A stretch of 64,000 nt of DNA. It comes from an uncultured Acidobacteriota bacterium. Lineage in GTDB: Bacteria; Acidobacteriota; UBA4820; DSQY01. The stretch covers positions 149,797 through 213,796 of the forward strand of contig CAVYWK010000022.1 in assembly GCA_963772255.1 (NCBI GenBank). Reading direction: 5' to 3'. The position numbers and the translations under genes were made by a program. Every line of letters starts with the position of its first letter. The stretch's first letter is position 1. Shown one piece after another: positions 1-20,000 of the stretch. Below the pieces are notes generated by a model, which saw only the letters and a program-made list of their open reading frames with translations, had not been told where the DNA came from and ran no database searches.

Positions 1-2
1 GC

Positions 3-362
3 ACCATATCGGAAAAACCGATAGAGGGAAGGCTTGGCGAAGTCCTGCTAAAAGACGACGCATATACCATCTTCAAAGAGGCTTCCACAAAGACTGAGTT
101 TAGCTTTGCGTTCGCGATTGTCGCTAAGGACAAAACAAGGGTTGAGGTCTATTGTCAGAGAGAGTTCGTCCAACACAGTAGGCTAGAAAAGGGCGATAAA
201 GGTGTCTATTACATTAGAACAATTAGCGACGCAACTAGGCAGCAGCTGAGGTATTATGGCACTAACGCTGCCGTGAAATTTGGAGAGTGCATCATTAGGG
301 TGTTTGAAGGGGACTGTCTGTACCGCTTCCATGCCTCTCTACCGTGGCCTGATTTGGCTTTT
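3..362 (+). CDS. Hypothetical protein, 5'-truncated by the window edge (low-GC gene)
   Basis: Frame 3 is open from the window start to TAG at 360-362 (120 codons). It is absent from the ORF track only because no start codon lies inside the window. Its low GC and codon usage differ from all other genes here. Confidence 0.4.
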
Positions 363-496
363 TAGCTAGCGGAAGACCGGGGTCTTGGGAGAGGCCGGGC
401 TGAGAGTCAAGACCGGGCTGATTATCACATCTAGCACCTCAGCAATTGAGCGCGCGTCGGGGTCGCGGAGGTTACGGACTACGCGCGCGTAACCAG

Positions 497-520
497 AAAG
501 CCCGCGTGGTGCGGGCTTTT
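497..520 (+). terminator. Rho-independent terminator hairpin (AAAGCCCGC-gtggt-GCGGGCTTT, then T run)
   Basis: Perfect 9 bp stem, 5 nt loop and T tract, read directly from the sequence. It lies between the low-GC ORF stop and the tRNA-Leu 3' end. Confidence 0.45.
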
Positions 521-524
521 GAGG

Positions 525-611
525 TGGTGCCGGAGCCGGGGGTCGAACCCGGACAGCCTTTCGGCCGAGGGATTTTAAGTCCCTTGCGTCTGCCAGTTCC
601 GCCACTCCGGC
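525..611 (-). tRNA. tRNA-Leu (anticodon TAA), type II with long variable arm, CCA encoded
   Basis: Manual fold: 7 bp acceptor stem GCCGGAG/CTCCGGC, anticodon stem-loop GGGAC-CTTAAAA-TCCC, T arm GGTTCGACCCC, 3' ACCA. Confidence 0.85.
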
Positions 612-673
612 TGGGGCCAGTATATCGCAGGCCCTGGCGGGGCGTGAGCCGGTGAGGCCCCCTGCGTCCCCCA

Positions 674-1760
674 TCAGCCCTGGGGAATCTTCGCGATGTC
701 CTCGGGCTTGAGGCCGAAGAGCTGCAGTTCGAATTTGGACTCCAGGTGGCCTTGCTTGGCGGCCTTGATGGTGAGCGCCTTGGCCGCCTCCTTGTCGAGG
801 GGAACACCCATTCCCGTGGCGTAGCACTTGGCGAGCTGGCGCTGGGCCGGGGCGTACCCCGCGTCCGCGGCCTTCTTCAGGAGGCGCGCTCCCTCCTCGG
901 GGGACTTCTCCACGCCGTCTCCCTCGAGGAAGACCATGGCGACGAGGACGAGGGAGGCCAGGTCCCCGCGGGCCGCCCCGGCCTGGAGGTCCTTCACGGT
1001 CGGCGCCGGCGCAGAGGGGTCACGGTATTCGGGGTAGAGCTGTCGGCAGCGGGCGAAGATCCGGGAGGCGACGGGAATGTCGGCGGAGGTGATGCGCCCG
1101 TCGGCGTAGCGCCGGGCGAAGAAGTACATGGCGTCGCCATGGCCTTGAGAGGCGGCCCGCGCGAGCCAGTAGAGGGCCTTGGTGGGATCCTTCGCGACGC
1201 CCCGCCCCTGCTCGAAGAGGTTGTAGAGGGCGAACTGCGCGTCGGCGTGGTTCCCCTTCGCCGCCAGGTCCAGGTAATAGGCCACCTTCGCGAAGTCGGG
1301 GGGCTCGAAATCCCCGCGGGCGTAGCGCATGGCCAGATCGTACTGGGCATTGGGGTCGCCCGCGTCGGCCGCGGCCCGGACGGGCTGGGAGTCGGCGAGC
1401 GCCTGACGGATGGTCCCGTCGATGGCGGCGAGGATCTGGCGGGACTTCTCGTGGCCCTGCCGGGCGGCCCGGGCGGCAAGGTCTCGCGCCTTGTACTGGT
1501 CCGCGGTCACGCCCTCTCCCTTGAGGTAGCACCCGCAGAGGAGGTACTGCGCCTCGGGCGCGCCCGCATCGGCGGCCCTGATCAGCCACGATGCCGCACC
1601 CTGGAGGTTTCCCTCCTTCTTCAACTCCGCGGCCAGCTCGATCTGGGCCGCGGTCTCGCCCCCCTCGGCCCGAGCGGTCAATCGCTCCCGCGGCGTGGGC
1701 TCGGGCTTCGGGGGCGGCGGGGGCGCCGCGGGGCGTCGCGGGCCATCTCCCGCCCCTCCC
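674..1760 (-). CDS. Sel1-like repeat protein, C-terminal frame. Probably continuous with 1678-2388 across a frame break; the start is undefined.
   Basis: Repeated Sel1 signatures (AQYLLCGCYLKGEGV, AQYDLAMRYARGDF, AQFALYNLFEQGRGVAKD). No ATG sits near the first repeat. The upstream Sel1 ORF ends at 1678, inside this frame. Confidence 0.55.
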
Positions 1761-2388
1761 GCATGATCGACTCCACCTGCTGGTTCATGAGGCCGCGCAT
1801 GAGGTCGGCGGCCTCCCTGCTCGTGAGGTTGACCGTGATCTTCTCCGGCTCGCCCAGCTCGCGACGGATGCCCGCCGCCAGGGGTTCGCCCCTCGGGTCG
1901 CCCGAGGCCCCGCACCGTTCGGCCCAGGGGAGGGCCGCGGCGAGATCGCGCGTCGTCCCGAGACCCTTCCCGTAGCACAGGGCGAGGTTGTACATGGAGT
2001 TGGGGTCTCCCAGCTCGGCTCCGCGCTTGAAGCAGCCGAACGCCTTGACGGGATCGGGGGGCACGCCCGAACCCTGCAGGTACATGACCCCCAGGTTGTA
2101 GATGCAGGCGGCGTGGTCCAGCTTCGCGCCGAGGGTCAAGAGGGCGTGAGCCTTGGTGAAGTCCTGCGGGATGATCTCCCCTTCGAGGCATATGAAGGCG
2201 AGTTCCCAGCAGGCGTCACCCGAGCCGTTCTGGGCGGCCATGCCGAGCCAGCGGGCGAACTCGCCGGTCTCGCCAAGATCGGGGTGGGCGCGGTAGAAGA
2301 CCCCCAGTTTGTACTGGAGCTCCACGTTCCCCGCCGAGGCCATCTGCCGCAGCGCGGCCAACTCTTCGGGGGTCATCTGCTCTGGCAT
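1678..2388 (-). CDS. Sel1-like repeat protein, N-terminal frame
   Basis: ATG at 2388 with GGAGG 5 nt upstream (MPEQMTPEELAALRQMASAGNVELQYKLGVFY...). Sel1 repeats throughout. Confidence 0.6.
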   Translation of the reverse strand: MPEQMTPEELAALRQMASAGNVELQYKLGVFYRAHPDLGETGEFARWLGMAAQNGSGDACWELAFICLEGEIIPQDFTKAHALLTLGAKLDHAACIYNLGVMYLQGSGVPPDPVKAFGCFKRGAELGDPNSMYNLALCYGKGLGTTRDLAAALPWAERCGASGDPRGEPLAAGIRRELGEPEKITVNLTSREAADLMRGLMNQQVESIMREGREMARDAPRRPRRPRSPSPRRGSD

Positions 2389-2736
2389 GAAGCCTCCACG
2401 TACCGGCCAATGTCCGATTCCCGTTCCGTCGCCTGGGAAAAGTAGAACACACGTCGAGAGCCTCATCCAGCGGATAGGGGTTCGGAGGTGGCGCCGCCGC
2501 GACGGGAAGAGATGAGATGCTGACCATGGCCACGGCCGGATGATGGCCCATGCGAAGAACCGGGTCAGGGGCCGTGCGAGCAGAAATTCGCCCGGCTCCG
2601 CCCGCGACCTCGCAGGCGGATTGCAAGCTCGCCCGAAAGTGTTACCTTGATGGCAGGATCGGACGGACCGGTGAGCCCATAGCCCGATGGCCGTCCAACT
2701 TTTCCGCCGGAGTTTGCGGCATCCCGGGGGGGTAAC

Positions 2737-4504
2737 ATGCCAAAGGATCCTTTCGACGAATCCCAGCTTGGAGATGTCGACATCGGCCGCCGGAAGTTTC
2801 TGCAAGAAGGGCGGCGCCGCGCTGGCCGCGGGAGTCACGCTGGCCTCCCTCCCAGCAGTTGCGGTCTCGGGCGGAGACCTCCCGTCGGATGCGGGACAGG
2901 AACCGGAGTCGGCGGAGGCCGCGGACCGGCCGTGGCGGCGCCCGAACCTCCTCTTCCTCATCACGGACCAGGAGCGCTATCCGCAGCACTGGCCGGAACA
3001 CTGGGCCGATGTGAATCTGCCCAACCGCAGGCGGCTCGCCGATCACGGACTGACCTTCACGCGCAACTTCTGCAACGCCGCCATGTGCTCGCCCAGCCGG
3101 GCCACGCTCTTCACGGGCCTCTACGCTTCGCAGCACCGCGTGACCCAGGTCCTGCAGTACGGCGGCCCCGATGACTGCGACGGGGACAACACCGGGCAGA
3201 CGACGCTCCAGCCCGGGCTCCAGACCATCGGCCGAATGCTCCTGGACGCGGGCTACGACGTGCAGTACCGCGGCAAGTGGCACATCAACAAGGACCCCAC
3301 CGGCACCATGCCCATCCAGAGCCCGGCGGACCTGGAACGGCACGGCTTCCCCGGCTGGATCCCGCCGGAGGCCGGAACCGATCAGAGCCCGACCGTGTTC
3401 GGCGGAGGGGACACCAACTACGACGCCCAGTACGCCTCCCAGGCGGCGGACTTTCTGAAGAGCGTCAACCCGGGGTCCTCCAAGCCCTTCGCGCTCTTCG
3501 TCTGTTTGGCCAACCCGCACGACCTCATGGGCTACCCGAGCACCTGGGACCAGCAGAGCTACAGCGACATCCCCCCGTTCGAGGGATCCCACAACTACCT
3601 CAAGGACGTGCCCCGCTGCTTCGAGCAGAACATCGATCTCCCGCCCACCGCCGGCGAGCCCCCCTTCGGGAACTTCAAGCCCCCGGCGCAGGGCGAATCC
3701 ACGATCATGTGGGCCTCCGGGCTGGGGACCCTCCTGAGAGAACAGGAGAAGCTGAACTACGTGAACTTCTACGCCTACCTGCACAAGCTGTCGGACGAAC
3801 ACTTCGGCACCGTTCTGGACGCGCTGGAGTCCAGGCATGCGTTGAGGAAACAGACCCTCGTCTTCGCCCTCTCCGATCACGGGGAGATGGGGCTGGCCCA
3901 CGGCGGCATGCGCGAGAAGGCCTACAACGCCTACGAGGAGACCATCCACGTGCCCCTCGTGGTCTCCAACCCCAAGCTCTTCCCCGGCCCCGTGCGGACC
4001 CAGGCTCTGGCGTCGCTCATCGATCTGATGCCCACCGTGGCCAACCTCGCGGGCGTGCAGAATCATGGGCGGTACACGTTCATGGGGCAAGACCTGACCC
4101 CCATCATCCAGGACGCCGTGGACCATCCGGCCAATCCCACCAAGACCGTGCAGGATTCCATCTACTTCACCACGGACGAGGTCCTCGGCGCGGAGATCGT
4201 GAGGTCGCCCAGCCACATCCGCTGCCTGCGCGAGGCGGGCTGGAAGGTCGCCGAGTATTTCGACCTGACGGCCGGAAATCCATCCCAGTTCGAGCTGTAC
4301 GACCTGGTCAACGACCCCCTCGAATCGCACAACATGGGCGACCCCGCCAACACCGCCTACTTCAACCCCGCCAAGCTGGCCGAGATGGTGGAGAAACTGC
4401 ATCGCAAGATGGAGGAGATCGATAACCACCCGTTCAGCGCGGTTGCGAAGCAGCGTGCGCCCCAGGCCAGGAAGCGGGGTTCCGTGCCGACCGGTACGGA
4501 ATGA
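2737..4504 (+). CDS. Cys-type sulfatase (arylsulfatase family) with Tat signal peptide. Frame break near 2800-2812 between the RR motif and the hydrophobic region.
   Basis: The sulfatase signature C-S-P-S-R (MCSPSRATLFTGLY) is present. The Tat motif GRRKFLQ is in the frame starting at ATG 2737 (GGGGGG SD), while the hydrophobic region GGAALAAGVTLASLPAVA and the rest of the protein are in the 2687 frame. Confidence 0.8.
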
Positions 4505-4538
4505 CCGCGGCGGCCAAGCGCCATAGGGTGGCCACGCC

Positions 4539-5792
4539 ATGATGGACACGCCAGGCAGTCCACCCGCCGGCTGCACGCGAGTCCCGACGCCTCCCCCCGC
4601 ATTCCACGTGATGGCCAAGCCGCGCGGGGCGGTGTGCAACTTGGACTGCGCCTATTGCTTCTACCTCCCCAAGGAGAAGCTTTACCCTGGCAGTGGTTTC
4701 CGGATGTCTGACGCGCTGCTGGAGGAGTACGTCCGCCAGCACATCGAGTCGCACCAAACGCCCGAAGTCACCTTCACCTGGCAGGGTGGCGAGCCCACGC
4801 TCATGGGGCTCGACTTCTTCCGGCGGGCTCTGGAGCTGCAACGGAAATACCGCAAGCCGGAAACGCAGATCCACAACGCGCTCCAGACGAACGCCACCAC
4901 GCTGGACGACGAATGGTGCCGGTTCTTCAGGGAAAATGGTTTCCTCGTCGGCGTCAGCCTCGACGGCCCGCGCCCGGTCCACGACGCCTACCGCGTGGAC
5001 CGGGGCGGCGCGCCGACCTTCGACAGGGTGATGGCCGGCCTCGCTCTCCTGCAGGTGCACGGGGTGGAGTTCAACGTCCTCGCCTGCGTCCATGCCGCGA
5101 GCGCCGGCCGCGGCCTGCAGGTCTACCGCTTCCTGCGCGACGACGTCGGGGCACCGATGATCCAGTTCATCCCCATCGTAGAGCGCGACAACACCACCGG
5201 ATTCCAAGAAGGCGACACGGTGGCGGCCCGCTCGGTCACCGGCAAGCAATACGGTGAGTTCCTGATCGCGGTCTTCGACGAGTGGGTGCGCCGCGATGTG
5301 GGCCGCGTGTTCGTACAGATCTTCGATGTGGCGCTGGGCGTCTGGTTCGGCCAGCCCTCCACGCTGTGCGTTCACGCCGAAACCTGCGGGGACGCACTGG
5401 CGCTGGAGCACAACGGCGATCTGTTCTCCTGCGACCACTTCGTGGAGCCCCGCCACAGGCTGGGGAACATCACGGAAACGCCCCTCGCCGACCTGGTCGC
5501 CTCGCCGCAGCAGCGCAAATTCGGGCTGGACAAGCGAAACTCGTTGCCACGGACCTGCCGTCAGTGTGAAGTTCGCTTCGTGTGCAACGGGGGCTGCCCG
5601 AAGGACCGCATCCTCACCGCCCCCGACGGCGAGCCGGGGCTCAACATTTTGTGCGAGGGGCTCAAGGCGTTCTTCACCCACATCGACCGCCCCATGAGCA
5701 TCATGGCGGACCTCCTCCGCCAGCGGCGCTCGCCGGCAGCCGTCATGCACCTCGCCGGTATGCCCGACCATTCGCGTCCGCCCGCGCCCTGA
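4539..5792 (+). CDS. Anaerobic sulfatase-maturating enzyme (radical SAM/SPASM, AslB/ChuR family)
   Basis: KPRGAVCNLDCAYCFY CxxxCxxC radical-SAM motif plus C-terminal Cys-rich SPASM region (CRQCEVRFVCNGGCP). Alternative start at ATG 4611. Confidence 0.85.
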   Translation: MMDTPGSPPAGCTRVPTPPPAFHVMAKPRGAVCNLDCAYCFYLPKEKLYPGSGFRMSDALLEEYVRQHIESHQTPEVTFTWQGGEPTLMGLDFFRRALELQRKYRKPETQIHNALQTNATTLDDEWCRFFRENGFLVGVSLDGPRPVHDAYRVDRGGAPTFDRVMAGLALLQVHGVEFNVLACVHAASAGRGLQVYRFLRDDVGAPMIQFIPIVERDNTTGFQEGDTVAARSVTGKQYGEFLIAVFDEWVRRDVGRVFVQIFDVALGVWFGQPSTLCVHAETCGDALALEHNGDLFSCDHFVEPRHRLGNITETPLADLVASPQQRKFGLDKRNSLPRTCRQCEVRFVCNGGCPKDRILTAPDGEPGLNILCEGLKAFFTHIDRPMSIMADLLRQRRSPAAVMHLAGMPDHSRPPAP

Positions 5793-5856
5793 AAACCTCG
5801 GCGCATCACCCGCCGGCCCGTCGGCCTCGGGGAGGGTTCCGCGGTATGATCGCCCC

Positions 5857-7504
5857 ATGAGTGAAGTCCTGCCCGGCATTCTCGCGCGGTCCCGACGGGG
5901 GCTCTGCCCGACCTGTGGCGCCGCGCTCCAACTCAAGGACTCCGAACGCCTCGTGACGTGCGGCTTCTGCGGAGCCCGGTCGAGCCTCGAGCGTCGCCTG
6001 CGGAAGCAGGACGCCGATGTGGACCTTCCCGAACTGGGCCCGGGCGAAGGCGGGGAACAGGACACGCGATGGCTCGCGGCCGCCATGGGCGAGAGTCGCC
6101 CCGAGAAGGTCACCTGCCCCGGTTGCGGCGATAAACTCGAGGGCGATCTCGCCCACGAGATCCTCACCTGCGCATCCTGCGGCACGCAGTGCAAGGTGGA
6201 GCGGCGCATGGTGCGCCCCCGGGCCGAGGCGCCCGTGGCGCCGGAGCGCCGCACCCGCGCGGACTTCGAGCTCCAGCGACGGGGTGGATCGACGCTCAAA
6301 TGGGATGTGGAGACCGAGCAGCTCATCTGGCGGATCCTCAACGAGCCCGACCTGGCGCGCCAGGTCGCCTACGCCCTCAAGTTCGAGGACTGGGCGTATC
6401 ATCAACGCCACGACGGTCTACTTCCTGCCGTTCCTGCTGGCCCTCGCGAAGCGGAGCGACCTGCGCCTGAGTGGCCCCCTCTGCGAGTGCGTCGGCAAGC
6501 TGCTGTGCCAGGAGGACGCCCGGCTCTTTGCGCCTACGCTCGAGGCCTGCGAGCCCTTCGCCCGGGACCCGCAGGGCTGCACCGAGCTCCTTCACCAGAT
6601 CGGGCTCGGCAACGCGCGGGGCATGAAGCTCCTGCTCGACGCGGCCGACGCGGCGGCCCGGGCGGGCGCCATGGACTATGCGGCCAACGCGCTCTGGGCG
6701 GCGCACTACATCGTGGAGCGGAACTACGACGAGCACCCGGTCATCTCCGAGATCATGCTCTACCGGCTCTTCTATCTCTCTCCCACGGTGATGGGATGGG
6801 TGTTGTACGTCATTCAGAGCGGCGAGGGCGGATACGTCTTCAGCGATCCCTATGCCCTGCTCGAGTTCATGGACGACTGCGCCTTCGAGCGGCCGGAACT
6901 GGTGAGCTTCCTGGCCACGCGCCCCTACGCGCCCGACGTCACCACCCTCACGGAATTGGCGGAACGCCTGGCGTTCATCGACGCGCGGCTCAGCAAACCG
7001 GCCAAGGCTGCCGCCCTGACGGCGCTGGCGAATATCGCCGACCAGGCGCCCGCCGACGTGCTCGCCTCGGCCGTGGCGTTCATGGATCCCTGGCTCGACG
7101 ACCCCGAATTATGCCCGGCGGCCACGACCCAGCTGCGGCGCTACATTAAGGCGGGAGACGACATTGCGCCGCCGCTGGTGGAGCTCATTCACCGACGAGG
7201 CCACTCCCTGCCCGAGATCGTGCAGCGTGAGGTGCACTGGAAGGCGCCTGAAAACACCCTCCTGGACCGCGGGAGGATTCCGCCCTACTACGACGGCGAG
7301 CCCGCGGCCACGATGGAGCCCGAGGTCGCGCAGGCGCTCGAGGCTTACGACACCGCCATCCGGCAGGCCGTGGACAGACGGGACGAGGAGAGGGAGGCGG
7401 CCAGGGCTTTCTGGCAAGAAGCGCGCGACCTGGAGGTCGATCTGTTCGGCGAAAACGGCCAAGAAGCCAGGGCTTCGACGGGAGCGGGGCATGAACCCCT
7501 CTAA
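5857..7504 (+). CDS. Hypothetical protein with two N-terminal zinc-ribbon modules and a roughly 400 aa uncharacterised C-terminal domain. Frame break near 6395-6415.
   Basis: CPTCG...CGFCG and CPGCG...CASCG motifs. The N-terminal part is in frame 5857 and continues in frame 6017 (IINATTVYFLPFLLALAKRS...). Confidence 0.5.
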
Positions 7505-7531
7505 CTACCTGTCTTTGGTGGGGAAAGAGTG

Positions 7532-7605
7532 TGGAGGCGCCGACCAGATTCGAACTGGTGATGGGGGCTTTGCAGGCCCCTGCCTTACCACTTGGCGACG
7601 GCGCC
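7532..7605 (-). tRNA. tRNA-Cys (anticodon GCA)
   Basis: Manual fold: acceptor GGCGCCG, anticodon stem-loop GGGGC-CTGCAAA-GCCCC, T arm GGTTCGAATCTGG, 3' CCA encoded. Confidence 0.8.
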
Positions 7606-16864: not shown

Positions 16865-17771
16865 TGGTGCGCGGACGCTTTTGCATCGCAGCGGTTACCC
16901 TCGGGCTTGCGCTGGGAGGGCTTTCCCTGGGCCTGCTCGGCGCGGATCCCGTTCCGGCCCCGGTGACGGCGTGACGGCCCCGGAGACAGCAAAAACCCCG
17001 GGGCTCGTGGGTGGAGAGACCTGCGCCACGTGCCACGAGGACATGGCGAAGGCCTTCCTGGCGGGCCCCCACGGGCAGGCCATGGCGGCCCGGTCCAAGA
17101 CCATGCCGGACGAGGCTTGCGAGCGCTGCCACGGACCGGGTGGAACCCACGTGGATGATCCTCAGAAGACCAACATCGTCAGGAACCCCAAAGACGAGGC
17201 CTGCCTGAGTTGCCATTCCCAGGCCGGGGGCCTGATGGCCCTGAGTCTCCCAGGGCACGACCGCACGGGCGTCCCCAAGTGCCTGGACTGCCATGTTCCG
17301 GGTCACGGGCCTGCGCCCGCCAAGCCCCTGCTGGCCGGCCCGCCCTCGGTGGTCTGCGCCAAGTGCCACGGTCAGGTGGCGGTGTCCTTCAAGATGCCCT
17401 ACAGCCATCGCAAGGGCGACAGCCCCTTCGAGTGCACCGCCTGCCACGCGGCCCACGGCAACAACCGCACGGGGCGCCTGCAGCAGACGGGCCCCGGCGC
17501 AGTCTGCCTCACGTGCCACACGGAAATGTCGGGACCCTACATCTACCCGCACCCGCCGCGCTCCGTGAGCGGCTGCATCGAGTGCCACACCCCGCACGGT
17601 TCCATGAACCCCATGATGCTCACCCGCCCGCAGGTGGCGGAAGTGTGCATCGAATGCCACACGGCGCTGACCCCACGGCACAACATCAGCAAGCCGATAT
17701 ACCGCAACTGCCAGAACTGCCACATCGGAATCCACGGCTCGAATCACAGCCGTCAACTGCTCGACGAATAA
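16864..17771 (+). CDS. Decaheme c-type cytochrome, MtrA/PioA/MtoA-like periplasmic component. Frame break near 16955-16975 between the signal peptide and the mature part.
   Basis: Ten CXXCH motifs (CATCH, CERCH, CLSCH, CLDCH, CAKCH, CTACH, CLTCH, CIECH, CIECH, CQNCH) in about 300 aa. The signal peptide MVRGRFCIAAVTLGLALGGLSLGLLGA is in the frame beginning at ATG 16864. Confidence 0.8.
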
Positions 17772-17797
17772 GTTCTTGGCTTGAGGATCAGACCCCC

Positions 17798-17822
17798 AAG
17801 GGGACCCGACGAGGGTCCCCTT
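17798..17822 (+). terminator. Stable hairpin (AAGGGGACCC-gacga-GGGTCCCCTT) after the decaheme gene; possible attenuator or partial terminator
   Basis: Perfect 10 bp inverted repeat read from the sequence. It lacks a clear T tract, so termination efficiency is uncertain. Confidence 0.35.
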
Positions 17823-18147
17823 GAGCTTATTCGGGGCAATGCTCTCACTGCTTTCACCTCTCTGATCCCGCATGAATGAGCATAATTTATACAAAGTCCC
17901 CCAATTGAGCCCGTTTGATGGCAATTTTGAGACCCATTTACCGGCCGATTCCAAAGTGGCAAATGGGGCATATACCCCACCACGACAAGGCATTTCTCTT
18001 TTTTTACCCATTTCTCTTGCAATCTGTTTTAAATTGACCCTCGGAGGTTGGCGGTTTAGGAAGAGGCGCAAGAATTCTCCTGGCTCTCGGGGATTTCTTG
18101 GAGGCGTTTTGAGGGCCGGTCAATTGTCAGATAGGAGGAGTTTCAGC

Positions 18148-20000
18148 ATGAAGAAGGCTATTTTCGCGGGATTAACACTGGCAGTGGCCGGCACCATGGT
18201 TTGGGCCGCTTCAAACAAAGCCCCGGTGATGGGCGGCGGCAGCGTCGTCGTGCCCGTGGCCAAAGAGCAGAGCTTGCAGAAGCTGCTCAACAGCCGCTAC
18301 TCCAAGGCTGAGCTTGCGGCTGGGACCTACGTGGGTTCCGAGTTCTGCCTTTCGTGCCATACCGGTTCCATCGCGCCCAACCAGACCTCTTGGCGCGACA
18401 CCTACCACGCTCACGCGCTCCGCCAGCCCATGGGCATGTACAGCCTGCAGCCGGGCCTGGGCGTTTTGGCGGATTACGATCATAACGGAGTGGACGACTT
18501 CAAGCAGGGCCTGGACTTCAACGCCGATCAGCTCCAACTTCGACTGCCACCAAGCCCAACGCCCCCATCCTCTCCTACAACGCCGCCGACGACACCTACT
18601 GGATCCAGCTCGGACCCGACGGGCCTCAAGGTTCAGGTCGTGGCCACCTGGGCCGGCCAGAGCGCGACCAACGGCCAGCGCTTCATGGTCCGCGTTCCCG
18701 TGAGCGACACGCCCTCCGGCTGGAGCGCGGCCATCTACTTCGCCCCCTTCGCCTGGGGTGGAACGGCCTACTCGCGACAACTCCAAGTACTGGTACACGG
18801 GCAGCACGCCCAAGTACGCCCCGGGCGTGACCACGGCCCAGCTCGGCACTCGACCACCGGGCTCCAGGGCCAGAACTACCTGCCAGAACTGCTCGGGCTG
18901 CCACATCACCGGCGTCCGCAAGGCCTTCGTGACGACGCAGCGGCGAGTACGTCGTGAACCCCTACCCGGCGTCCCTCGTCCCCGAGAACAGCCCCAACTA
19001 CCCCGACCTGGACGGCGACGGCCTCCCGGACATGGCCAACATCGGCTGCGAGAGCTGCCACGGCCCCGGCTCCGCCCACATCCTTGCCGGCGGCGACCCC
19101 TCCAAGATCGTGAACCCCGCCGACCTGCCCGCGAGCACCGGCTACGCCCAGGCCAACCAGGCCCGGTCCGGCGTGTGCCTCCAGTGCCACGTCCAGACCG
19201 GCTCCTGCGCCCACCAAGAAGTGGGGCTTCACCTTCGACGAGACCACGAATACGCCCTTCCGGGTGGCCAACCCCCTGCCGGACCTCACCCAGTACCAGG
19301 TCTCCAAGGCCGTGAAGTGGCCCGACGGCGTCGCCTACAGCACGGAGCGCATCGACAGCTACCGCAGCAGCGCCCACTACGAGGGCAGCCACGGCATCGC
19401 CTGCAACGACTGCCACGACGCCCACGCCATCACCGAGAACGGGACCAACCAGGTTCGCGACACCATCACCCGCAGCGGCGTCACCGTACACCAACACCAG
19501 CGTCGAGGACGACAGCTTCTGCCTCGCGTGCCACGCACGCGCCCGCGCGTTCCCGACCATCACGCAAGCAGAACGTGATCGACTGGAAGACCGCCGGCTT
19601 CGAGGCCCCCATTCCGGACAGCATCCGCGACGGCATCGAGGCCCACACCCACCACCCCTACGGCGCGAACCGCTCCCTCGGCCTGAGCCGCTGCACAGGC
19701 TGCCACATGGCCTCCAACCACACCTTCTGGGTGGCGGAGCCCGAGAGCACCATCGCCTACAAGGATGTGGTCACCTCCGACACCGTCAAGGGCAACATCA
19801 ACGGGTGCTCCGCCGGCTGCCACCGCGGCCAGGTCATCATCTGGAGCGACGTGCCCGCCAACCTGACCTACACGGACAAGCTCTACAACGGCGCCAACGA
19901 GATCAGCCTCGCCAACCACCTGGTGCAGTACTTCGGCCCCGGCGGCGAGTGGTTTGACACCACGCCCGCCTCGGCGCCCGTGGCCCAGGACTGGAAGTAG
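18148..20000 (+). CDS. Multiheme c-type cytochrome (eight or more haem sites, about 617 aa), secreted. The reading frame is disrupted at least eight times.
   Basis: ATG at 18148 with AGGAGG 7 nt upstream. Signal peptide MKKAIFAGLTLAVAGTMVWAAS without a lipobox Cys. Haem motifs CLSCH, CSGCH, CESCH, CLQCH, CNDCH, CLACH, CTGCH plus CSAGCH (CX3CH) are spread over four frames, with protein-like sequence continuing across frame switches. Terminator follows. Confidence 0.65.

What the first reader, a model, noticed from the sequence alone, without database searches (positions are those of the whole stretch)
1..611. Low-GC foreign DNA abutting the 3' end of tRNA-Leu(TAA): a likely island boundary at the window edge
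The first 360 bp have about 46% GC versus about 68% for the remaining 63.6 kb. They encode the C terminus of a protein with no family recognisable by eye, ending at TAG 360-362 and followed by a hairpin terminator. The minus-strand tRNA-Leu 3' end at 525 points toward this segment. tRNA 3' ends are classic integration sites for prophages and ICEs, so the window probably clips the end of an integrated element whose integrase lies further left.
Basis: partly seen in the sequence, partly recalled or inferred. Interest (0 to 1): 0.55.

Follow-up and report, generated by a model that had tools for sequence, protein, structure and literature searches.

The report
Small foreign gene islet beside tRNA-Leu
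The low-GC DNA at the window edge is real and looks foreign, but in the closest relatives it is only a 1.1-kb patch carrying one orphan gene wedged between tRNA-Leu and its usual neighbour gene, so it is an ordinary small islet and not the edge of a prophage or ICE.

Summary
Window 1-362 is 47.2% GC against 65.1% for the rest (z = -5.3). It encodes the last 120 codons of a gene (stop at 363-365, not 360-362). An intact tRNA-Leu(UAA) lies at 525-611 on the minus strand, with its 3' end facing the patch.

The gene is a 201-aa orphan with a signal-peptide-like N-terminus. It has no relative among about 15 billion proteins other than its own 2-member cluster. Its GC3 is 52-56% against 84-91% in neighbouring genes. 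Strain comparison shows an excess of synonymous changes.

The source contig could not be retrieved. Two metagenome contigs from the same species level (about 98% identical) show the same junction. In the longer one, the low-GC stretch is only 1,107 bp. Left of it, GC returns to 68% and a ferritin-like/VIT iron-transporter gene begins.

An Acidobacteriota MAG with an identical tRNA-Leu has that same VIT gene 138 nt downstream of the tRNA, so it acts as an empty site.

No integrase, no repeat of the tRNA 3' end and no phage hit was found. The only mobile-element trace is a 22-residue match to a transposase HTH.

Verdict: an ordinary genomic islet carrying an orphan gene. The prophage/ICE reading is not supported. 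Low interest.

The parts
1..452 (.). Right-hand part of a low-GC islet. The islet is about 1.1 kb in the close relative L001 (L001 295-1401), so it should begin about 655 nt left of window position 1. The right compositional boundary falls between 368 and 452.
   Evidence: GC of 1-362 is 47.2% against 65.1% elsewhere, z = -5.3. The change point is at window 368 and at L001 1401, which corresponds to window 452. L001 GC is 68.0% / 50.1% / 67.4% for 1-294 / 295-1401 / 1402-1542.
3..365 (+). Last 120 codons plus the TAG stop of a 201-aa orphan gene (P0001). The start codon lies about 240 nt left of the window. The N-terminus MTRRLPYLLIVFAILALPLS looks like a signal peptide.
   Evidence: Frame-3 translation. 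100% match to P0001, 201 aa, on a 414,272-bp contig. Only two cluster members exist, and there is no true homologue among 1.84 billion representatives. No family hit. GC3 is 0.525 against 0.84-0.91 in neighbours, and there are 6 synonymous against 3 non-synonymous changes plus one in-frame codon indel versus L001.
450..488 (.). GC-rich inverted repeat GCGCGCGT-N23-ACGCGCGC, at the right edge of the low-GC patch. It occurs once in the window.
   Evidence: It is part of the strongly folding minus-strand segment 440-530 (z = -4.2).
497..519 (.). 9-bp G+C-rich hairpin (AAAGCCCGC / GCGGGCTTT, 5-nt loop) flanked by A/T runs on both strands. It is probably a two-way terminator shared by the convergent tRNA-Leu and orphan gene.
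   Evidence: It was not called by the stricter consensus scan. It is identical in L001 and L002.
525..611 (-). Intact tRNA-Leu(UAA), 87 nt with encoded CCA. Its 3' end at 525 faces the islet.
   Evidence: ARAGORN. Rfam RF00005 at 53.6 bits. 87/87 identical to the tRNA-Leu of Acidobacteriota MAG L003.
674..2370 (-). Native-composition right flank: two tandem Sel1-repeat genes. This is context, not part of the islet.
   Evidence: Pfam Sel1 at 3.8e-32 and 1.2e-22. GC3 is 0.906.

Best explanation
The window clips a genomic islet of about 1.1 kb, not a large element.

Shown:
- A compositionally foreign stretch sits in the spacer between tRNA-Leu(UAA) and the ferritin-like/VIT iron-transporter gene. 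In a related Acidobacteriota genome that gene directly follows the same tRNA.
- The stretch carries a single gene for a 201-aa lineage-restricted protein. The gene has a Shine-Dalgarno-like GAGGTG 6 nt before its ATG and a signal-peptide-like N-terminus.
- The gene is transcribed towards the tRNA and ends before two hairpins that lie next to the tRNA 3' end.
- Between strains, the coding sequence changes mostly at synonymous sites, while the 400 nt upstream of it accumulates changes.

Inferred:
- The DNA came in by horizontal transfer from a lower-GC source.
- Whatever carried it has decayed. What remains is debris: a 22-residue relic resembling the C-terminal HTH of Y1-transposase-like proteins, and a 165-nt self-complementary element.
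- The one gene has been kept because it is useful, most likely as an exported or envelope protein.
- The insertion lies about 70-150 nt beyond the tRNA, past its terminator hairpin. This fits insertion into a permissive gap between convergent or tandem genes better than integrase crossover inside the tRNA gene.
For: - Composition: 47.2% against 65.1% GC, z = -5.3. GC3 is 0.525-0.559 against 0.84-0.91 in neighbours.
- Orphan status: one 2-member cluster in 5.8 billion clusters. The exhaustive HMMER search found only repeat-inflated chance hits. No Pfam, PADLOC, PHROG, NCBIfam or PDB match.
- Size and borders in the same-species proxy L001: the low-GC segment is 295-1401 (1,107 nt, 50.1% GC), flanked by 68.0% and 67.4%. 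L001 and L002 are about 97.8% identical to the window. This matches the 97.5% seen for the native genes of L014, so they are the same species level.
- Empty site: L003 has the identical tRNA-Leu, then 138 nt, then a 379-aa Rubrerythrin+VIT1 gene. Its N-terminus is 78% identical (E = 6e-13) to the gene that starts at L001 135, in the same orientation. In L001 the tRNA-to-VIT distance is 1,338 nt.
- Coding constraint: 6 synonymous against 3 non-synonymous changes in 119 aligned codons (a fourth non-synonymous change, T82A, is in the first codon, outside the alignment) plus an in-frame indel, pN/pS = 0.14, binomial p = 0.005. L001 against L002 shows 7 differences in 428 upstream nt against 0 in 822 nt of CDS plus downstream, Fisher p = 5e-4.
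- No island hallmarks: no tRNA-derived repeat (score 9 against a null of 9.2 +/- 1.2). No Pfam domain in any frame of L001 136-720. No hits in viral contigs or phage genomes.
- Debris: the HTH relic matches residues 258-279 of a Legionella Y1_Tnp + DnaA_C-like 'transposase'. The structured element at L001 354-518 folds with z = -6.8.
Against: - The window's own upstream sequence was never seen, because the 414-kb contig is not in the retrievable index. The size of the islet is extrapolated from a 98%-identical relative.
- The empty-site comparator L003 is distant. The spacers do not align, so the insertion point cannot be fixed to the nucleotide.
- The substitution counts are small.
- The HTH relic is a 22-residue match (E = 0.8 against all plasmids) and could be chance.
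- The protein's function is unknown, and the AlphaFold model is unusable (pLDDT 47).
- Both metagenome contigs end inside the tRNA. This could hint at strain heterogeneity there, or it could simply reflect tRNA-induced assembly breaks.
Confidence: 0.65

Rival explanations
1. The window clips the right end of a large integrated element (prophage, ICE or genomic island) that used the 3' end of tRNA-Leu as attB. Its integrase and the far att repeat lie further left.
For: - Low-GC DNA lies on the 3' side of an intact tRNA.
- The window's own left flank was not seen.
- L001 and L002 both break inside the tRNA.
- A neighbouring tRNA (tRNA-Cys) has a 3.5-kb strain-level indel at its 3' side, so tRNA-adjacent variability exists in this species.
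Against: - In the 98%-identical L001, GC is back at 68% within 1.1 kb, and the gene there is the native neighbour of this tRNA in L003.
- There is no tRNA 3' repeat.
- There is no integrase relic.
- There are no viral or phage matches to the gene or to the tRNA 3' 30-mer.
- A native-GC segment of at least 72 nt, containing the terminator hairpin, separates the tRNA from the low-GC DNA.
Confidence: 0.1
2. The islet is the last remnant of an island that once integrated by integrase-mediated recombination at tRNA-Leu. Deletions have since removed the integrase, the far att site and nearly all cargo.
For: - tRNA 3' sides are the usual targets of tyrosine integrases (Islander paper PMC4383910, abstract seen).
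- The patch contains decayed non-coding debris next to one intact gene.
- Integrative elements are reported as a major source of ORFans (PMC2718499, title and abstract seen).
Against: - No trace of an integrase or of a displaced tRNA fragment.
- The only recognisable relic resembles a Y1-type transposase HTH, not an integrase.
- The compositional boundary lies beyond the tRNA's terminator hairpin and not inside the tRNA.
Confidence: 0.15
3. The gene is native, not imported. It is a very young (de novo) or very fast-evolving gene that arose in an AT-rich intergenic spacer, and its low GC simply reflects non-coding ancestry.
For: - No homologue anywhere.
- GC3 near 52-56% resembles non-coding DNA. 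This genome does contain a non-coding gap of the same GC (17750-18180, 47.5%).
- The reading frame is open from L001 511, well upstream of the ATG.
Against: - The spacer would have had to grow from about 140-230 nt to 1.3 kb.
- The patch contains an HTH relic and a structured repeat-like element, which point to imported mobile DNA.
- The synonymous excess and a well-formed signal-peptide-like N-terminus suggest a mature gene.
Confidence: 0.08
4. The junction is an assembly or binning chimera that joins unrelated low-GC DNA to the contig at a tRNA.
For: The window comes from what appears to be a metagenome-derived contig, and tRNAs are frequent chimera points.
Against: The same ORF-hairpin-tRNA junction is present in three independent assemblies: the source contig, JGI L001 and ENA L002.
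Confidence: 0.02

Closest known systems
Genomic islets carrying AT-rich ORFan genes in bacterial chromosomes
   Same: The gene is short (201 aa), much AT-richer than the host genome and restricted to one species-level lineage. It is absent from the syntenic site of a relative and sits next to mobile-element debris. ORFans are described as shorter and AT-richer than native genes (PMC3514957, abstract) and as often derived from integrative elements (PMC2718499).
   Different: Nothing essential differs. The host appears to be an uncultured Acidobacteriota-like bacterium, and the protein has no recognisable family.
tRNA-integrated genomic islands, prophages and ICEs (as defined for the Islander database, PMC4383910)
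   Same: Foreign-composition DNA lies on the 3' side of an intact tRNA gene.
   Different: There is no integrase and no displaced tRNA fragment. The patch is about 1.1 kb instead of several kb to more than 100 kb. The foreign DNA starts beyond the tRNA's terminator hairpin and not inside the tRNA.
Y1 (IS200-like) transposase proteins with a C-terminal DnaA_C-like HTH, e.g. Legionella adelaidensis WP_131739603.1
   Same: A 22-residue stretch upstream of the orphan gene in L001 (LKEIGDHFGLLYASTSRIIKER) is 54.5% identical to that protein's HTH, which lies at the protein's C-terminus.
   Different: No trace of the Y1 catalytic domain. The frame is interrupted. The match is short and statistically weak. 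It lies outside the window, in a relative.

Membership tests
tRNA-integrated genomic island / prophage / ICE | An intact (regenerated) tRNA or tmRNA gene at one end | tested here: met
   tRNA-Leu(UAA) at 525-611 on the minus strand, with its 3' end facing the low-GC DNA.
tRNA-integrated genomic island / prophage / ICE | An integrase (tyrosine or serine recombinase) gene inside the element | tested here: not met
   No Pfam domain in any stop-free segment of L001 136-720, nor in the orphan protein. Only 1.47 kb of a same-species proxy could be read. The window's own upstream DNA was unobtainable.
tRNA-integrated genomic island / prophage / ICE | A displaced 3' fragment of the tRNA as a direct repeat at the far end | tested here: not met
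   The best local match of the tRNA to L001 1-1470 scores 9, against a shuffled mean of 9.2 +/- 1.2. There is no second copy of the 3' 34-mer in the window with up to 3 mismatches. Distances beyond 1.47 kb to the left could not be tested.
tRNA-integrated genomic island / prophage / ICE | Foreign DNA begins within the tRNA gene (crossover inside the tDNA) | tested here: inconclusive
   The compositional boundary falls at window 368-452, which is 72-157 nt beyond the tRNA end. The terminator hairpin lies in between. Composition alone cannot fix the boundary, and the L003 spacer does not align.
tRNA-integrated genomic island / prophage / ICE | Phage, conjugation or other element genes as cargo | tested here: not met
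   No PHROG, PADLOC or Pfam hit. No tblastn hit in 50,697 phage records or in IMG/VR.
Genomic islet with an ORFan gene | Atypical base composition and codon usage relative to the host | tested here: met
   GC is 47% against 65%, and GC3 is 0.525-0.559 against 0.84-0.91.
Genomic islet with an ORFan gene | No homologues outside a narrow lineage | tested here: met
Genomic islet with an ORFan gene | Absent from the syntenic position in a related genome | tested here: met
   L003 has tRNA-Leu, then 138 nt, then VIT. L001 has 1,338 nt between the same two genes. The comparator is distant.
Genomic islet with an ORFan gene | The ORF is a real gene (coding constraint) | tested here: met
   6 synonymous against 3 non-synonymous changes in 119 aligned codons plus an in-frame indel, p = 0.005. 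There are 0/609 CDS differences against 7/428 upstream differences between L001 and L002. The counts are small and expression was not tested.
IS200/IS605-type (Y1 transposase) element | Y1 (HUH) transposase catalytic domain | tested here: not met
   Only the HTH region of the Legionella protein matches L001 (residues 258-279). There is no match to residues 14-120, the Y1_Tnp domain.

The most novel reading that the evidence does not exclude
The orphan gene is a newly born gene, or a gene from an unsampled mobile gene pool, encoding a secreted protein of a new fold. It has been fixed under purifying selection in one Acidobacteriota-like species. It may have been delivered by a minimal hairpin-seeking (Y1-transposase-type) cassette that lands next to the terminator hairpin downstream of a tRNA. 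That would be a way of populating tRNA-adjacent spacers without any integrase.
Probability: 0.07. Interest if true: 0.5.

Novelty: new member of a known kind. Interest (0 to 1): 0.15.

Why it matters
It matters little beyond annotation. This window start should not be flagged as a prophage or ICE boundary.

The case is a useful caution: a low-GC stretch next to a tRNA 3' end does not by itself mark an integrase-borne island. Here, a distant genome with the identical tRNA and the same downstream gene, together with a same-species contig, bound the foreign DNA to about 1.1 kb.

The orphan protein (exported-looking, apparently constrained, no relatives among about 15 billion proteins) is one more uncharacterised lineage-specific gene.

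Tried and rejected
Attempts to reach the window's own upstream DNA:
- Exact look-ups of P0001 and of two start variants of the sulfatase found nothing. The 414-kb contig is not in the retrievable index.
- The genome-contig scan with P0001 found no relative.
- The metagenome scan with the tRNA/terminator junction returned only L001 again.

Synteny through the sulfatase:
- The 72-76% homologues (P0011, P0014) are not syntenic.
- The relatives with sulfatases at least 88% identical (L012-L015) all break in the Sel1 genes before reaching the tRNA.

Other dead ends:
- A protein search with the 45-aa N-terminus of L001's left gene found nothing. This turned out to be an index limitation: the L003 VIT protein is in the collection and shares 7 five-residue words with the query, yet was not retrieved. 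The negative result says nothing.
- The two weak hits of the exhaustive search (P0003, P0004) are repeat-inflated chance matches.
- The weak family hits have no support: OTCace_N, MuDR DBD, AcrIIA2 (15 bits against a cut-off of 40) and a pilin.
- AlphaFold on the single sequence gave pLDDT 47, so no fold search was run.
- The imperfect 15-nt direct repeat flanking the patch (L001 161-175 and 1394-1408, 12 of 15) is within chance expectation (own estimate, about 10 such pairs per 1.5 kb).
- The hairpins at 450-488 and 497-519 are not a dispersed REP-like family.
- L001's upstream elements have no copies in the window.
- Rfam found nothing in L001 above chance.

Full report
**Observation**

Among all 362-nt windows this is 5.3 standard deviations below the mean. 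Only one other place reaches a similar value: 17819-18180 at 47.5%. That place is a non-coding gap between two cytochrome-type genes.

Frame 3 is open from base 3 to base 362 and ends with TAG at 363-365, not 360-362. ARAGORN and Rfam both find an intact 87-nt tRNA-Leu(UAA) at 525-611 on the minus strand, with its 3' end facing the low-GC DNA.

Two hairpins lie between the stop codon and the tRNA. One is GCGCGCGT-N23-ACGCGCGC at 450-488. The other is a 9-bp G+C-rich stem at 497-519, flanked by A/T runs on both strands. The second hairpin is 5 nt from the tRNA end and 133 nt from the ORF stop. It is best read as a shared two-way terminator for two convergent genes. The strict consensus scan did not call it.

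**The gene**

The 120-residue fragment matches, at 100% identity, the C-terminus of one 201-aa protein, P0001. That protein is recorded on a 414,272-bp NCBI/ENA contig. Its 90% cluster has just two members.

An exhaustive HMMER search of 1.84 billion cluster representatives returned only P0001 itself and two weak hits. Both weak hits are tandem-repeat proteins whose scores are sums of chance matches. Pfam, PADLOC, PHROGs, NCBIfam and PDB sequences gave nothing above noise. A tblastn search of 50,697 phage records and a scan of IMG/VR were also empty. A single-sequence AlphaFold model was unusable (pLDDT 47).

The N-terminus (MTRRLPYLLIVFAILALPLS...) has the charge-then-hydrophobic layout of a signal peptide. 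This is my reading of the sequence.

Codon third positions are 52-56% G+C, against 84-91% in the sulfatase, the radical-SAM maturase, folP and the adjacent Sel1 gene. The gene is therefore compositionally foreign, not merely AT-rich in amino-acid content.

**Relatives and the left flank**

The source contig could not be retrieved. The second cluster member, P0002, is on two short metagenome contigs: L001 (JGI, 1,542 bp) and L002 (ENA, 1,261 bp).

Both contigs show the same order, orphan gene, hairpins, tRNA-Leu. They differ from the window by 13 substitutions and one 3-nt indel over about 580 nt, or roughly 97.8% identity. This equals the divergence of native genes between the window and contig L014 (97.5% over 4.26 kb). 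These contigs therefore represent the same species level, and the junction is not an assembly artefact.

In L001 the low-GC segment runs from 295 to 1401 (1,107 nt, 50.1% G+C). It is flanked by 68.0% on the left and 67.4% on the right. In window coordinates that is roughly -654 to 452.

Left of it, on the minus strand, a gene starts at L001 135.

**Empty-site comparison**

A scan of one genome per species with the tRNA's acceptor/T-arm and anticodon arm found two loci. One of them, L003, is from an Acidobacteriota MAG. Its tRNA-Leu(UAA) is identical to the window's at 87 of 87 positions.

A 379-aa gene with Rubrerythrin-like and VIT1 domains starts 138 nt downstream of that tRNA, on the same strand. 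Its N-terminus is 78% identical over 32 residues (E = 6e-13) to the gene starting at L001 135, and the orientation relative to the tRNA is the same.

The ancestral arrangement is therefore tRNA-Leu followed closely by the VIT gene. In the window's species the two are 1,338 nt apart, and the extra DNA corresponds to the low-GC patch. The two spacers are too diverged to align, so the insertion point is known only from composition.

**Tests of the island model**

As summarised for the Islander database, tRNA islands are defined by three features: an integrase, a regenerated tRNA gene and a displaced tRNA fragment at the far end (PMC4383910, abstract).

- No tRNA-derived repeat exists in the 1.47 kb left of the tRNA in L001 (best score 9 against a shuffled 9.2 +/- 1.2).
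- No such repeat exists elsewhere in the window. The only similar sequence is tRNA-Met.
- No stop-free segment in any frame of L001 136-720 matches any Pfam family.
- The tRNA's 3' 30-mer is absent from IMG/VR.
- At least 72 nt of native-composition DNA, including the terminator hairpin, lies between the tRNA and the patch.

That criterion is met in the nearest available genome.

**What else is in the patch (in L001, outside the window)**

Upstream of the orphan gene's ATG there is a GAGGTG 6 nt before the start.

Further upstream, in the same frame, is a stretch LKEIGDHFGLLYASTSRIIKER. Its only database match is the C-terminal HTH of a Legionella protein annotated as a transposase, which carries Y1_Tnp and DnaA_C-like domains. 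The match is 54.5% over 22 residues, with E = 0.8 against all plasmids and 2e-5 in the pairwise setting. No catalytic-domain relic is present.

Further left again is a 165-nt strongly self-complementary element at L001 354-518 (z = -6.8). It has no copy in the window. I read these two features as mobile-element debris, with low confidence.

**Is the orphan a real gene?**

Between the window and L001 there are 6 synonymous and 3 non-synonymous changes in 119 aligned codons. A fourth non-synonymous change falls in the first codon, outside the alignment. There is also one in-frame codon indel. This gives pN/pS = 0.14 and binomial p = 0.005, ignoring transition bias.

Between L001 and L002 there are 7 differences in the 428 nt upstream of the ATG and none in the 609-nt CDS or the 213 nt after it (Fisher p = 5e-4). 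The numbers are small, but both comparisons point to constraint on the coding sequence and none on the debris.

**Explanation**

The most likely reading (about 0.65) is an ordinary genomic islet. A piece of lower-GC DNA entered the tRNA-Leu/VIT spacer. Its vehicle has decayed. One gene for a small, probably exported protein has been retained and is transcribed towards the tRNA, ending at the shared hairpins.

ORFans are described as shorter and AT-richer than native genes (PMC3514957) and as often derived from integrative elements (PMC2718499) (abstracts).

The rivals are:
- an intact large element further left (about 0.1);
- a fully decayed integrase-type island (about 0.15);
- a native de novo gene (about 0.08);
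- a chimera (about 0.02, contradicted by three independent assemblies).

**Limits**

- The window's own upstream DNA was not seen.
- The empty-site genome is distant.
- The function of the protein is unknown.

**Verdict**

The DNA is foreign and lies next to a tRNA, but it is a 1.1-kb islet with no sign of an integrase-borne element. Novelty: a new member of a known kind. Interest is low.

Noticed in passing
window 17750-18180: This is the only other place in the window with GC as low as the finding (47.5%). It is a non-coding gap of about 380 nt between a multihaem cytochrome c gene (16881-17771, +) and the next plus-strand gene (start near 18148). This shows that non-coding DNA in this genome can be as AT-rich as the orphan gene.
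   Followed up: partly
window 525-7605; L003 1-460: In the Acidobacteriota MAG L003, tRNA-Cys, tRNA-Leu and the VIT gene are adjacent, with gaps of about 188 and 138 nt. In the window, 6.9 kb of normal-GC genes lies between tRNA-Leu and tRNA-Cys: two Sel1-repeat genes, a sulfatase at 2774-4504, its radical-SAM maturase at 4539-5792 and a zinc-ribbon protein at 5857-7504. The block between the two tRNAs therefore looks like a larger variable region than the flagged patch.
   Followed up: partly
window 7458-7531; L014 4259-7803: Contig L014 is 97.5% identical to window 3199-7457. It carries an extra 3.5 kb (a GH81 glycoside hydrolase gene, normal GC) between the zinc-ribbon gene and the 3' end of tRNA-Cys, where the window has about 50 nt. 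This is a strain-level indel at the 3' side of a tRNA, with no integrase visible. L015 has a TonB_C gene at the same place.
   Followed up: partly
window 5830-7504 (break near 6400): The zinc-ribbon protein gene changes frame near 6400 relative to its 566-aa orthologue in L015. It reads in frame 1 for 5830-6399 and in frame 2 for 6401-7498. This is either a pseudogene or a sequencing or assembly indel.
   Followed up: partly
L001 354-518 (about 430-600 nt left of window position 1): A 165-nt element with 18-nt terminal inverted repeats and a nested internal hairpin. It folds far better than shuffles (z = -6.8). It has no copy in the 64-kb window and no Rfam match. Five of the seven L001/L002 differences fall in or next to it.
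   Followed up: partly
L001 541-606: A 22-residue in-frame relic resembling the C-terminal HTH of Y1_Tnp + DnaA_C-like 'transposase' proteins lies directly upstream of the orphan gene. No stop codon separates it from the gene's ATG.
   Followed up: yes
L001 1531-1542; L002 end: Both metagenome contigs that carry the orphan gene end inside tRNA-Leu. The last 12 nt of L001 diverge from the tRNA sequence. L002 begins at L001 281, close to the left compositional boundary of the patch at 295. This may reflect assembly-graph branching at a polymorphic site, or just tRNA-induced breaks.
   Followed up: no
window 674-2964: Two long minus-strand ORFs with Sel1 repeats overlap by about 500 nt (674-2191 and 1678-2964). 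The overlap is probably a spurious N-terminal extension of the downstream gene, meaning there are two tandem Sel1-repeat genes and not a frameshift.
   Followed up: no
tool behaviour: The word-indexed protein search returned no candidates for a 45-aa query. The collection nevertheless holds a protein (P0133) that shares seven 5-residue words with it. Negative results for very short queries from that tool should not be taken as absence.
   Followed up: yes
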